DNA from: Blastocatellia bacterium
GTDB lineage: Bacteria; Acidobacteriota; Blastocatellia; UBA7656
Length of the DNA stretch: 64,000 bases
NCBI GenBank assembly: GCA_963765495.1
Contig: CAVXWP010000001.1
Span: forward strand, 800,001 to 864,000
Direction: 5' to 3'
Shown here: piece by piece, positions 16,343-18,168 of the stretch
How positions within the stretch are numbered: the first letter of the stretch is position 1
Layout: each line of letters starts with the position of its first letter
Notes under the pieces: model-generated
The model's database searches: none
Told to the model about the DNA's origin: nothing
The model's input: only the letters and a program-made list of their open reading frames with translations
Program-made: the position numbers and the translations under genes

Positions 16343-16545
16343 CTTGCCGAAGCTACCTTTTGCCCTGTGAAAGTGTTCCCCGGGTCAATGCCGGCCATTG
16401 GCGCAAGTTGGTTGCCTCTGTAATAGCCCGGCTTTCGATCTCCCTGCCCCTCATTGGACTGGCGAGTTGCCGCATCAGGAGTTGAATTTGCACGATTGCA
16501 AAGGCTTCTCTGCCTCCTGCGAGCAATAATCAAATGAGGAATGAT

Positions 16546-17181
16546 ATGTTGGCTCAAGGGTCATATGGTTCTGCGTCCATCGAAGCACCCATGTCTGATG
16601 ATACTGACCGCCTGTATAGTCTGGCGGCTGCGCTCGATGAAATAAACGAAGGTGCGGTTTTCTTAAATCCGGAAGGGCAACTGGTCTGGCACAATCGAGC
16701 ATTTGATAAACTTCTGGTTGATAATAGCGAAGGTCATCTGCTGGTGGCTTCGGTCCTGGAGCTTGGAGCCGATTTTTATCAGGATTTCTATGAATTGCAG
16801 TACCCGGTCAAGCTGAACGGAGAGGCGCTGACCTCTGTTGTGCGCGAGGTTATGGTCGGTCGCATAGAGCATACGCTGCACTGCACCTTGATGCCGGCAG
16901 GGATGCTTGGAGCCGACAGCTATCTGTTATGTCTGGTCAAACGTTCGGCATCGCGATGGTCGAGCTATGGCGAGCATCTGCGCCAGACCTGGGGGCTTAC
17001 CGAGCGTGAATCTCAGGTAGCGCTCGAATGCCTCAGGGGCAAAAAGAACCTTGAAATAGCCGAACGGCTCAGGATAAGCGTCGAAACCGTGAATAAACAT
17101 CTCGATAAGGTCTATCAAAAAGCGTCCGTGAGGGGACGCGCTGAACTGGCTTCCCGCCTGCTCGACAGCGGGCTTTTCTGA
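16546..17181 (+). CDS. PAS-like domain plus LuxR HTH regulator
   Basis: GAVFLNPEGQLVWHNRAF and LTERESQV...GKKNLEIAERLRISVETVNKHL; GAGGA RBS. Confidence 0.85.
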   Translation: MLAQGSYGSASIEAPMSDDTDRLYSLAAALDEINEGAVFLNPEGQLVWHNRAFDKLLVDNSEGHLLVASVLELGADFYQDFYELQYPVKLNGEALTSVVREVMVGRIEHTLHCTLMPAGMLGADSYLLCLVKRSASRWSSYGEHLRQTWGLTERESQVALECLRGKKNLEIAERLRISVETVNKHLDKVYQKASVRGRAELASRLLDSGLF

Positions 17182-17239
17182 CCGCTCAGATACGTAGAAG
17201 GCTTGCGCGCTTGCGGAGGGAAGAATTATTGTTGTTTTA

Positions 17240-17509
17240 ATGCGAATAGAGAAGAGTTCATCAACCGTATTCACTCCGCTTCCCGACGACAACGGTGTTT
17301 TGTTGAATCTGGAAACTCTCTATTATTACCGCCTCAACCGCACAGGCGCGATTATCTGGAAGCAGATAGATGATGGGGGAACCATCACGCTCGATGAACT
17401 GGTCAGAGGTGTTTGCGAGAGGTTCGAGGTAAACGAAGAGGCCGCGCGCCGCCATCTCGGCGCGTTTGTAGAGCAGCTTGAACAGTTCAAGATGGTCAGT
17501 GTTGCCTGA
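17240..17509 (+). CDS. PqqD-family (RiPP recognition element) protein
   Basis: GVLLNLET..YY.LNRTGAIIW...D...L....CERFEV....A...L..FV..L pattern. Confidence 0.8.
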   Translation: MRIEKSSSTVFTPLPDDNGVLLNLETLYYYRLNRTGAIIWKQIDDGGTITLDELVRGVCERFEVNEEAARRHLGAFVEQLEQFKMVSVA

Positions 17510-17687
17510 TCGCTCACGACTTCCCGTTCAAGTATCGCAGGTTTCAAATCTCAAGTCTCAAATCTCAGATTCGATCCTGTCAAACTGACATGTTCTGTCA
17601 GGCCCAGGCATCGAAATTTGTCAGTCACGGGGAAGTGCTCCAATGATAAATCGTTAGATTTTAACGGTTTAGACTCCCCTAAACAGG

Positions 17688-17702
17688 TGGCACGAAGCTT
17701 GC
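17688..17702 (+). promoter_or_regulatory. Sigma54 -24/-12 promoter
   Basis: TGGCACG-AAGC-TTGC matches the consensus; TGTCA/TGACA palindromic half-sites at 17578-17600 lie about 100 bp upstream. Confidence 0.75.
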
Positions 17703-17715
17703 CCAAATAAATTAC

Positions 17716-17850
17716 GCAGCACGAAAGGCTGCACAGCGGACGGGGTTACGGGGGCAACACCGTCCGCCGTCAAATCGAAGAAGTAAATAGGAGAGCCACA
17801 GGGATCGGAGTTAGGGGGGCAACACCGATTTCTGTGGTTCGTGCTGTTTA
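17716..17850 (+). ncRNA. Candidate structured small RNA or leader with two G-rich-loop hairpins
   Basis: Hairpins 17736-17767 and 17796-17837 share CGGrGTTAsGGGGGCAACACCG; closing stem 17716-17725/17838-17847; starts just after the sigma54 promoter. Confidence 0.6.
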
Positions 17851-17949
17851 CGGGCTTTATTCAGAAAATGTTTGCCCGCGCTTAACGCATCTGTAACTGC
17901 TCTTTCGTATGCTTTTATTAGAAGAGTGTGCGAAGGAGGCGAGTATTTT

Positions 17950-18168
17950 ATGTCAATCACAGTTTCAAACGTCGAATCCTTCCTGCCTGGTCAGATGGTG
18001 CAAACCAGTTTCGGACAGGGCGTAGTATCGGCCATCAGCCGTCTGGATTCGATCATATATGTAACTCTGTCAAAACACCCTGCGGGCCTTTACCTCTTGC
18101 GCCCCGAACAAGTGGAGGCATTAGGCGGCGCAGATTCGGCAAGCGTTGATCGCAGACACGATCTGTGA
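17950..18168 (+). CDS. Small hypothetical protein (72 aa, possible SH3/KOW-like beta-barrel)
   Basis: AAGGAGG RBS; FLPGQMVQTSFGQGVV pattern. Confidence 0.6.
   Translation: MSITVSNVESFLPGQMVQTSFGQGVVSAISRLDSIIYVTLSKHPAGLYLLRPEQVEALGGADSASVDRRHDL

What the first reader, a model, noticed from the sequence alone, without database searches (positions are those of the whole stretch)
17578..17860. Sigma54-driven candidate ncRNA with twin GGGGG-loop hairpins and an alternative 5' fold
Seen: candidate enhancer palindromes TGTCA-N3-TGACA-N5-TGTCA (17578-17600), an AT-rich spacer and a consensus sigma54 box TGGCACG-N4-TTGC (17688-17702). From the expected +1 follows a ~135-nt non-coding stretch. Hairpin 1 (GCGGACGG/CCGTCCGC, 17736-17767) and hairpin 2 (CCACAGGGATCGG/CCGATTTCTGTGG, 17796-17837) have different outer stems but the same apex, CGG-R-GTT-[A(C/G)GGGGGC]-AAC-A-CCG. 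The 5' end GCAGCACGAA can pair with 17838-17847 to close the whole structure, or form a local GCAGC/GCTGC hairpin. Established: repeated stem-loops under sigma54 or two-component control are typical of protein-sponge sRNAs (CrcZ, CsrB/Rsm), but those use A-rich or GGA motifs. Inference: an undescribed sponge or base-pairing RNA, or a regulatory leader for the downstream small ORFs. I do not recognise it as a known family.
Basis: partly seen in the sequence, partly recalled or inferred. Interest (0 to 1): 0.8.

Follow-up and report, generated by a model that had tools for sequence, protein, structure and literature searches.

The report
Sigma-54 small RNA family with G-loops
This is a real, previously uncatalogued small regulatory RNA gene, one of at least six copies in a soil acidobacterium, switched on from a sigma-54 promoter and carrying two hairpins with an invariant GGGGGC loop whose binding partner is still unknown.

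Summary
Window 17688-17702 is an exact sigma-54 box. About 12 nt downstream starts a ~140-nt RNA: a 5-bp hairpin, then two long hairpins with the loop A-N-GGGGGC.

It is a gene family, not a chance fold. A covariance model finds it in 51 of 53 genomes of one Blastocatellia family, at 1-5 copies each. It is essentially not found in 116 other genomes of the class or 398 of the phylum. Rfam 15 has no match.

On a MAFFT alignment 24 of 42 pairs change on both sides; on 59 model-fitted rows 41 of 42 do. Fifty-two of 53 copies examined have a sigma-54 box at a fixed distance, and the 53rd has it inside the hit.

One conserved locus, between radA and yacL, has a U-tract terminator and no downstream gene. 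The family is therefore a stand-alone sRNA, not a leader.

Each hairpin keeps a purine-purine mismatch exactly 3 bp below the loop, which suggests shape-specific recognition. The partner is unresolved: protein titration ~0.4, base pairing ~0.35. CsrA is absent, Hfq is present, and no conserved target was found.

The parts
17578..17600 (+). Upstream activator-site candidate. The conserved core is TGACATGTTCTGTCA (17586-17600) = TGAC-N7-GTCA, 102 nt upstream of the -24 element.
   Evidence: Sequence read. TGAC-N7-GT[CT]A lies 87-114 nt upstream of the box in 31 of 53 copies. In the own genome only 5 of 152 sigma-54-like boxes have such a site, and 4 of those are sRNA copies.
17614..17634 (+). 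Second upstream element, AAATTTGTCAGTCACGGGG. It aligns by eye with the conserved (A)ATTTGTTA(A)CCC-N4-GGGTA block of the other copies.
   Evidence: Upstream sequences printed. The alignment is by eye. Its function is inferred.
17657..17687 (+). A/T-rich block ATTTTAACGGTTTAGAC followed by CCCCTAAACAGG. It is conserved as TTTTCAACGACTTAGC...ACCC-N5-GG just upstream of the -24 element, where an IHF-type bending site would sit.
   Evidence: Conserved in the upstream sequences. The IHF assignment rests on a recalled consensus and was not tested.
17688..17702 (+). Sigma-54 (-24/-12) promoter TGGCACGAAGCTTGC. The predicted start is near 17714.
   Evidence: A [TC]GG[CT]A[CT]-N5-[TC]TG[CT] box ends 8-14 nt before the model start in 51 of 53 copies. 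One more is shifted by the hit boundary and one lies inside the hit. No transcript data are available.
17716..17732 (+). P1: 5-bp 5' hairpin, GCAGC / ACGAAAG / GCUGC.
   Evidence: RNAalifold. All 5 pairs change on both sides in the 59-row alignment, with 97% of cells paired.
17733..17770 (+). P2: first G-loop hairpin. It has an 11-bp lower stem, a G.A mismatch, a 3-bp upper stem and the loop ACGGGGGC (17748-17755).
   Evidence: The loop is A[CAU]GGGGGC in 52 of 53 distinct copies. The mismatch is G.G in 45, G.A in 3 and G-C in 3 of 53.
17771..17794 (+). Purine-rich linker. It includes the 5' strand of the closing helix P3; in this copy GUAAAUAG pairs with CUGUUUAC in the minimum-energy fold.
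   Evidence: fold. P3 is GAGAAGCGA/UCGCUUC in most orthologues. The linker is 51% A and 74% purine over 53 copies.
17795..17838 (+). P4: second G-loop hairpin. It has a 14-bp lower stem, an A.A mismatch, a 3-bp upper stem and the loop AGGGGGGC (17813-17820).
   Evidence: The loop is A[CAUG]GGGGGC in 50 of 53 copies. The mismatch is G.G in 35 and G.A in 13 of 53.
17839..17862 (+). 3' tail (UCGUGCUGUUUACGGGCUUUAUU). The 3' end is undefined: there is no canonical terminator in this copy.
   Evidence: One search finds no + strand terminator. Other paralogues have clear U-tracts or a separate terminator.
17860..17913 (+). Conserved intergenic blocks before the small ORF: TTCAGA-N17-TAAC, a second GTAAC, then a TAnAAT-like hexamer (TATGCT). 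They probably form the ORF's own promoter or operator region.
   Evidence: Alignment of 23 orthologous loci. Their function is inferred and no sigma factor is assigned.
17950..18168 (+). Syntenic 72-aa protein of unknown function. It belongs to the conserved locus, not to the RNA.
   Evidence: No Pfam hit. Found in 20 of 34 genomes of the same family and 0 of 116 elsewhere in the class, always next to this sRNA copy. Twenty-two homologues, all unnamed or 'hypothetical'. The model is a small beta-barrel, pLDDT 78.5. Fold matches are weak, Tudor/KOW-like, best E 7.9e-3.

Best explanation
Window 17714 to about 17850-17862 encodes one paralogue of a lineage-specific family of trans-acting small RNAs.

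Supported by sequence comparison:
- Transcription starts from a sigma-54 promoter. That promoter needs an enhancer-binding activator bound at a shared upstream palindrome (TGAC-N7-GTCA plus a second element), with an A/T-rich block in between.
- The same control region precedes the four full-length paralogues that the model found (c1-c4). The fifth, single-hairpin copy and a sixth, divergent locus have the sigma-54 box but not the strict palindrome. Almost no other sigma-54 box in the genome has the palindrome, so one signal probably raises these RNAs together.
- The RNA folds into a short 5' hairpin and two long hairpins.
- Each long hairpin presents the same module: an 8-nt loop A-N-GGGGGC on a 3-bp stem, above a purine-purine (G.G or G.A) mismatch.

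Inferred:
- The two modules are the effector sites.
- They are read as shape plus sequence by an unidentified, probably dimeric, RNA-binding protein.
- The induced sRNAs titrate that protein away from its other RNAs. This is the logic of Csr/Rsm, CrcZ or GlmY, but with a different motif and a different protein.
For: It is a gene family.
- Model R1 hits 51 of 53 genomes of the family, in 20 of 20 genera, at 1-5 copies each.
- Elsewhere in the class there is 1 weak partial hit in 116 genomes.
- A composite pattern (box plus both loops) matches 3 of 3 family genomes and 0 of 398 others in the phylum. The tool's control pattern gives 0.

The fold is supported.
- MAFFT alignment of 11 copies: 95.2% of cells paired, 24 of 42 pairs changed on both sides, 0 of 500 shuffles as good, slid controls 35-50% paired.
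- 59 model-fitted rows: 95.9% paired, 41 of 42 pairs changed on both sides.

The promoter is conserved.
- 52 of 53 copies have a sigma-54 box upstream; the 53rd has it inside the hit.
- The palindrome is present in 31 of 53.
- In the own genome 4 of the 5 box-plus-palindrome combinations, out of 152 boxes, are sRNA genes.

It stands alone.
- 23 copies sit between radA (convergent) and yacL/ispD (divergent). Hairpin P4 is followed directly by a U-rich tail there, and no gene follows on the same strand.
- A sixth, roughly 300-nt paralogue at G000:C15 has its own strong terminator.

The module is invariant.
- Loops match in 52 of 53 and 50 of 53 copies.
- The mismatch is G.G or G.A in 48 of 53 copies in both hairpins.
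- 11 of the 12 such hairpins in the genome lie in these loci. Six control motifs give 0-2.

For a protein rather than an antisense partner.
- The geometry is fixed while the stems covary.
- There are two modules per RNA.
- Complementary sites in 5' regions show no excess over a reversed-seed control.
- GCCCCC.T sites are intergenic at the background rate: 127 of 626, about 20%, against an intergenic share of 20%.
- No conserved GCCCCC lies in the syntenic loci.
Against: - No transcript evidence: no RNA run holds the locus.
- No candidate protein. CsrA is not found in the genome.
- The neighbouring 72-aa protein is missing from genera that keep the sRNA, so it cannot be the general partner.
- The module is found in no mRNA leader, so no mimicked target site is known.
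- Most characterised sRNAs act by pairing (general knowledge).
- Hfq is present, and the A-rich linker and U-tails fit an Hfq-dependent pairing RNA equally well.
- The target scan used a home-made gene caller and one genome, so its negative result is weak.
- The cognate activator is not identified.
- This window's copy has no clear terminator.
Confidence: 0.4

Rival explanations
1. Same sigma-54-controlled sRNA family, but the two G-rich loops are redundant antisense seeds. They pair with C-rich GCCCCC(N)U stretches in mRNAs or in other sRNAs, helped by Hfq. This would resemble Qrr in regulation and 6C or sX13 in architecture, with the complementary base composition.
For: - The only invariant single-stranded nucleotides are in the apical loops.
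- Hfq is encoded.
- The linker is 51% A and 28 of 53 copies carry an (ARN)3 run.
- Many copies end in hairpin plus U-tail.
- Pairing is the commonest sRNA mechanism (general knowledge).
- CCCCCG rises mildly at -50 to -26 from starts: 43 against 7-30 in the other bins.
Against: - Duplex energies against 5,5xx 5' regions are no better than a reversed-seed control; for example 33 versus 35 sites at -18 kcal/mol or lower.
- The best-looking target, a bEBP-like gene at G000:C8:906072-907109, keeps its site in 1 of 24 orthologues, the own genome only.
- (CCCCCGG)n arrays occur in only 10 of 53 genomes of the family.
- G-rich seeds cannot mask the GGAGG ribosome-binding sites this genome uses.
- A conserved G.G or G.A mismatch at a fixed distance from the loop is not needed for a seed.
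Confidence: 0.35
2. In this window the structure is a cis-acting 5' leader. The sigma-54 transcript runs on into the 72-aa and following small ORFs, and the hairpins control their expression or are processed from the leader.
For: - No canonical terminator lies between 17838 and the ORF.
- The sRNA and the 72-aa ORF are syntenic and co-oriented in at least 23 loci, about 100 nt apart.
- U-tails are weak in this locus type.
Against: - The same RNA occurs at the radA/yacL locus with a terminator and no downstream gene, and at other unrelated loci.
- Genera without the ORF keep the sRNA.
- Conserved blocks with fixed spacing and a TAnAAT-like hexamer lie between the RNA and the ORF, suggesting a separate promoter.
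Confidence: 0.07
3. A ligand-sensing or self-associating RNA. The two identical G-rich modules bind a small molecule or ion, or form G-G contacts with each other or between molecules, as the paired hairpins of guanidine-II do.
For: - Tandem hairpins with identical loops beginning ACG.
- Conserved G.G mismatch and G5 runs.
Against: - No Rfam riboswitch match.
- Loops are 8 nt and position 2 varies (C, A, U or G).
- The radA/yacL copies have no gene to control in cis.
- G-rich loops cannot pair with each other.
Confidence: 0.05
4. Not a functional RNA: a repeated DNA element (REP or MITE-like palindromes) or protein-binding DNA sites that happen to lie after sigma-54-like sequences.
For: - The element is multi-copy.
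- The genome is rich in short intergenic repeats.
Against: - Covariation keeps RNA pairing, including G-U pairs, on one strand.
- Orientation and distance relative to a sigma-54 box are fixed in 53 of 53 copies.
- The loci are syntenic across 20 genera.
- Terminators follow.
Confidence: 0.03

Closest known systems
Qrr1-5 of Vibrio (LuxO/sigma-54-dependent quorum-sensing sRNAs)
   Same: Several paralogous sRNA genes per genome, each with its own sigma-54 promoter and a shared upstream activator site. The activator's recognisable sites sit almost only at sRNA genes. Knowledge of Qrr and LuxO is recalled.
   Different: No Rfam match. The fold is different, with no conserved linear seed. The upstream palindrome TGAC-N7-GTCA is not the LuxO site as I recall it. 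The phylum is different. Pairing is not shown here.
CsrB / RsmX, RsmY, RsmZ (CsrA/RsmA sponges)
   Same: Repeated hairpins present the same short G-containing loop motif, with multi-copy genes under one regulator. This is the logic I favour for how it works.
   Different: The loops are A-N-GGGGGC, not A(N)GGA. CsrA (PF02599) is not found in the genome. The promoter is sigma-54. There are only two modules per RNA.
CrcZ/CrcY (CbrB/sigma-54, Hfq-titrating) and GlmY (GlrR/sigma-54 plus IHF, RapZ decoy)
   Same: These are sigma-54 and enhancer-binding-protein dependent sRNAs that act by sequestering a protein. The promoter has an upstream site and an intervening A/T-rich block. The sigma-54, GlrR and IHF control of glmY/glmZ was seen only in the search listing and abstract of PMC3045617. 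The linker here is A-rich.
   Different: No sequence or model similarity. The conserved elements here are G-loops, not A-rich repeats or a GlmZ-like stem.
6C RNA of Actinobacteria and sX13 of Xanthomonas (hairpins with C-rich loops)
   Same: Two or three hairpins whose apical loops carry the same homopolymer-rich motif (recalled).
   Different: The composition is the mirror image: G5C instead of C-runs. It cannot target G-rich ribosome-binding sites. There is no Rfam 6C match, and the promoter is sigma-54.
Guanidine-II riboswitch (mini-ykkC)
   Same: Two similar tandem hairpins with loops that begin ACG.
   Different: The loops here are 8 nt rather than tetraloops, and position 2 varies. There is no Rfam hit. 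The element is not consistently upstream of a gene.

Membership tests
Sigma-54-dependent promoter | GG and GC dinucleotides 10 nt apart within TGGCAC-N5-TTGC(W), at a fixed short distance from the transcribed element | tested here: met
   Exact TGGCACG-N4-TTGC at 17688-17702. A box is present at 53 of 53 copies, and in 51 it ends 8-14 nt before the model start.
Sigma-54-dependent promoter | Upstream activator sites about 80-150 bp away, and actual dependence on RpoN and an enhancer-binding protein | tested here: inconclusive
   A conserved palindrome lies at -87 to -114 in 31 of 53 copies. About 30 enhancer-binding-protein genes are in the genome. Dependence itself cannot be tested with these tools.
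Any Rfam 15 family | Covariance-model score at or above the family's gathering threshold | tested here: not met
   0 matches in the whole window at gathering score. In 17450-18050 only three hits at E 2.6-4.8, far below gathering.
CsrB/Rsm sponge sRNAs | Multiple GGA motifs in hairpin loops, and a CsrA/RsmA protein in the genome | tested here: not met
   The loops are A-N-GGGGGC. PF02599 finds nothing in the 97.9%-complete genome, while the positive controls score.
Qrr sRNAs | Match to the Qrr model, with a conserved about 32-nt pairing region and four stem-loops | tested here: not met
   No Rfam hit. The consensus fold is P1 plus two long hairpins closed by P3.
6C RNA | Two hairpins with loops of six or more C | tested here: not met
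   The loops are G-rich and there is no Rfam hit.
Guanidine-II riboswitch | Two hairpins with ACGR tetraloops located in the 5' leader of a regulated gene | tested here: not met
   The loops are 8 nt. The radA/yacL copies have no downstream gene on the same strand. There is no Rfam hit.
Hfq-dependent sRNA | Hfq encoded, a terminator hairpin with U-tail, A-rich (ARN) or U-rich internal sites, and binding to Hfq | tested here: inconclusive
   Hfq is present. U-tails occur in many but not all copies. An (ARN)3 run is in 28 of 53 linkers. Binding cannot be tested.

The most novel reading that the evidence does not exclude
A Csr-like global post-transcriptional switch built from different parts. 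A single enhancer-binding protein and sigma-54 would drive a battery of sRNAs whose structured G-loop module (3-bp stem, G.G mismatch, A-N-GGGGGC loop) captures an undiscovered RNA-binding protein. This would operate in a lineage of soil Acidobacteriota that lacks CsrA.
Probability: 0.3. Interest if true: 0.8.

Novelty: new variant of a known kind. Interest (0 to 1): 0.66.

Why it matters
Acidobacteriota are among the most abundant soil bacteria, yet almost nothing is known about their RNA regulators. Five full-text searches found no paper describing this family, and Rfam 15 has no model for it.

The family offers several concrete handles:
- a well-defined regulatory RNA with a readable promoter, so the inducing signal can be sought through the activator;
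- a clear phylogenetic boundary, one Blastocatellia family;
- several paralogues per genome;
- an unusual G-rich effector module that points to a partner different from those of the textbook systems.

It also provides a covariance model and a simple pattern that can be used to annotate these genes and to look for their transcripts in soil metatranscriptomes.

Tried and rejected
Expression. One search for sequencing runs listed no RNA holder, only DNA contigs of one soil study. Read laying was therefore not used. This says nothing about expression.

Targets.
- Loop-to-5'-region duplex energies equal those of a reversed-seed control.
- The positional profile of GCCCCC/CCCCCG shows only a slight rise at -50 to -26.
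- GCCCCC.T sites are intergenic at the background rate.
- No conserved GCCCCC lies within 1.5 kb of the syntenic copies.
- A tempting feedback target, a 345-aa activator-like gene with AGCCCCCGUU in its leader, keeps the site in 1 of 24 orthologues. Rejected.
- C-rich heptamer arrays (CCCCCGG)n, complementary to the loop, occur in 10 of 53 genomes of the family and 5 of 20 genera, against 51 of 53 for the sRNA. Rejected as the conserved partner.

The 72-aa neighbour as partner. It is absent from genera g14, g4 and g2, which keep the sRNA. Rejected as the general partner. Its fold matches are below significance.

Cognate activator. None of about 30 enhancer-binding-protein genes is adjacent to a copy; the nearest is about 6 kb from the C8 copy, with unrelated genes between. 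Not identified.

Plain blastn found homologues in only 9 of 60 relatives at E < 1e-3. The covariance model was needed. Even that model under-counts divergent copies: the C15 locus scores only 26-28 bits.

R-scape is not available. Supplementary files of papers were not consulted, and no paper's text beyond search listings and abstracts was read.

Full report
**What is in the window.**
- the palindromic run TGTCA-AAC-TGACA-TGTTC-TGTCA (17578-17600);
- an exact TGGCACG-N4-TTGC box (17688-17702);
- a stretch with no + strand ORF of 30 aa or more;
- two hairpins that share the apex GTTA[C/G]GGGGGCAAC (17745-58 and 17810-23).

The 152-nt stretch folds far better than shuffles: -67.5 kcal/mol, z = -7.24, 0 of 200 shuffles as good. 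Taken alone, the promoter match and the twin motif are not beyond chance. The case rests on comparison with other copies.

**It is a gene family.**
The window's own genome is 7.3 Mb in 17 contigs. It holds a second copy on contig 9 with its own exact sigma-54 box, the same loops and different, compensating stems.

Blastn found nine orthologues in other genera of the same family. A MAFFT alignment of the 11 sequences gave a consensus of four helices:
- P1, a 5-bp 5' hairpin;
- P2, the first G-loop hairpin;
- P3, a closing helix;
- P4, the second G-loop hairpin.

On that alignment 95.2% of cells are paired and 24 of 42 pairs change on both sides. No shuffle out of 500 does as well, and slid controls reach only 35-50% pairing.

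A covariance model built from the alignment gave:

| Search | Result |
|---|---|
| Genomes of the same family | 51 of 53 hit, 20 of 20 genera, 1-5 hits each |
| Class, same family (without the own genome) | 33 of 34 hit |
| Class, other families | 1 weak partial hit in 116 |
| Phylum, composite pattern (box, then two A-N-GGGGGC loops at the right spacing) | 3 of 3 family genomes, 0 of 398 others, controls 0 |

On 59 distinct model-aligned rows, 41 of 42 pairs show changes on both sides. That alignment is fitted to the model, so it leans towards the structure.

Rfam 15 has nothing at gathering score in the window and only noise at E > 2 locally. Five full-text searches found no description of the family.

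**Promoter architecture.**
I examined 53 copies from 32 genomes. In 52 a sigma-54 box lies upstream: 51 end 8-14 nt before the model start and one is displaced by the hit boundary. The remaining single-hairpin copy has the box inside the hit.

Upstream, TGAC-N7-GT[CT]A sits 87-114 nt before the box in 31 of 53 copies, and most of the rest carry near variants.

Two further blocks are conserved:
- (A)ATTTGTTA(A)CCC-N4-GGGTA;
- an A/T-rich TTTTCAACGACTTAG-like block next to the -24 element.

The second block sits where an IHF site would be. That reading rests on a recalled consensus and was not tested.

In the own genome only 5 of 152 sigma-54-like boxes have the palindrome at -60 to -140. Four of these are sRNA genes. 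This crude scan suggests an activator devoted largely to these RNAs, as recalled for LuxO with qrr or GacA with rsm. The activator itself was not identified.

**Stand-alone RNA, not a leader.**
Neighbour clustering shows two conserved locus types.
- Type A is the window's type: LuxR/GerE regulator, PqqD-like protein (Pfam), sRNA, then a 72-aa ORF. At least 23 loci are of this type.
- Type B lies between radA (convergent) and yacL(PIN-TRAM)/ispD (divergent), with 23 hits and no gene downstream on the same strand.

In type B, P4 is followed at once by a U-rich tail such as CCCCUUUGGUAUUUUGG or a run of eight U, which is an intrinsic terminator. Type B occurs in all genera, including those with a single copy.

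Other paralogues sit at unrelated loci. Scanning the genome for the hairpin module revealed a sixth locus at G000:C15:33106-33430. It is divergent and about 300 nt long, with a sigma-54 box, both modules, the conserved linker words and a separate strong terminator.

In the window's copy no canonical terminator follows. Conserved blocks lie between the RNA and the ORF: TTCAGA-N17-TAAC, GTAAC and a TAnAAT-like hexamer. These suggest the ORF has its own promoter, although read-through is not excluded.

The local GCAGC/GCUGC hairpin is conserved, with G-U and compensatory changes. The long-range pairing of 17716-25 with 17838-47 has no counterpart elsewhere. Other copies instead close P4 with GAGAAGCGA/UCGCUUC, and in the window the minimum-energy fold uses GUAAAUAG/CUGUUUAC.

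**The effector module.**
What never varies is the loop.
- P2: ACGGGGGC in 41, AAGGGGGC in 10 and AUGGGGGC in 1 of 53 copies.
- P4: A[CAUG]GGGGGC in 50 of 53 copies.

Below each loop is a 3-bp stem that covaries freely. Below that is a 1x1 internal loop that is almost always purine-purine:

| Hairpin | G.G | G.A | G-C | Other or gap |
|---|---|---|---|---|
| P2 | 45 | 3 | 3 | 2 |
| P4 | 35 | 13 | 2 | 3 |

Of 12 hairpins in the genome with this design, 11 lie in the six sRNA loci. Six control motifs give 0-2. The linker is 51% A.

**How it probably works.**
The comparisons support a sigma-54 promoter with shared control elements, the fold, two invariant modules and independence from neighbouring genes. 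Everything beyond that is inference.

I favour recognition of the module by a protein that the induced RNAs titrate (about 0.4). The reasons:
- a fixed geometry (loop, 3 bp, purine mismatch) with covarying stems is typical of protein sites;
- there are two modules per RNA;
- I found no sign of antisense targets.

The evidence on targets:
- duplex energies equal those of a reversed control;
- complementary sites are not enriched between genes;
- the best candidate site is not conserved, present in 1 of 24 orthologues;
- the complementary heptamer arrays occur in only 10 of 53 genomes.

Against the protein reading:
- no protein candidate exists;
- CsrA is not found;
- the neighbouring 72-aa beta-barrel protein is missing where the sRNA persists;
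- Hfq, an A-rich linker and U-tails fit a pairing RNA.

Base pairing through the loops therefore stays a close rival (about 0.35). My target scan was crude and used a single genome.

**Comparison with known systems.**
In regulation the family resembles Qrr, CrcZ and GlmY. In repeated loop motifs it resembles Csr/Rsm sponges and, as a mirror image, 6C and sX13. It fails the defining tests of each: no Rfam match, no GGA motif, no CsrA, no C-rich loops and no tetraloops.

I class it as a new variant of a known kind: an enhancer-dependent, multi-copy regulatory sRNA with an unprecedented G-loop module, restricted to one family of Blastocatellia.

**Limits.**
- There are no expression data.
- E-values of the home-built model are rough.
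- Related genomes are not independent samples.
- Gene calls used for the scans were home-made.
- Papers were seen only as search listings and abstracts.

Noticed in passing
whole genome G000; in the window for example 17545-17570 (TCTCAAA-type units just upstream of the activator site): There is a striking excess of tandem heptanucleotide repeats: 436 arrays of at least 3 exact 7-nt units, against 7-37 arrays for periods 5, 6, 8 and 9. Of these, 360 are intergenic. A handful of unit types dominate (AGGGATG 107, ACGCATC 63, ACTGCCT 49, AATCACG 48, AAAACTC 45, CCCCCGG 29, AAATCTC 25). From the coordinates, CCCCCGG arrays often appear as inverted pairs about 100-130 nt apart. This recalls the heptamer repeats of cyanobacteria.
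   Followed up: partly
window 17950-18168 (+): A 72-aa protein restricted to this bacterial family, always directly downstream of this sRNA locus type. It has no Pfam family. The predicted fold is a small 4-5-strand beta-barrel (pLDDT 78.5) with only weak Tudor or NusG-KOW-like matches (best E 7.9e-3).
   Followed up: partly
window 17860-17913 (+): Conserved spaced blocks TTCAGA-N17-TAAC, GTAAC and a TAnAAT-like hexamer lie between the sRNA and the small ORF in 23 orthologous loci. This looks like a promoter or operator of unknown sigma factor or regulator, possibly for the LuxR-type protein encoded upstream.
   Followed up: no
window 16534-17509 (+): A LuxR/GerE-type regulator (215 aa) and a PqqD-like protein (89 aa; a family recalled as a peptide-recognition element) are conserved immediately upstream of the sRNA in about 20 loci. 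No partner maturase or precursor was looked for.
   Followed up: no
G000:C15:33106-33430 (+), locus L105 706-1030: A sixth, expanded paralogue of about 300 nt. It has a sigma-54 box, a long 5' extension, both G-loop modules 137 nt apart and a separate strong terminator. The covariance model missed it at genome scale.
   Followed up: yes
G075:C10:462687-463375, G071:C339:9293-9899, G070:C303:16870-17528: In three genomes of genus g14 the radA/yacL-type sRNA is tandemly duplicated. The two copies are about 450-540 nt apart, each with its own sigma-54 box.
   Followed up: partly
G000:C8:906072-907109 (-), locus L104: A 345-aa protein related to enhancer-binding proteins, with no receiver domain. 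By eye the GAFTGA loop is degenerate (recalled motif; sequence). Orthologues occur in about 24 of 53 genomes of the family.
   Followed up: partly
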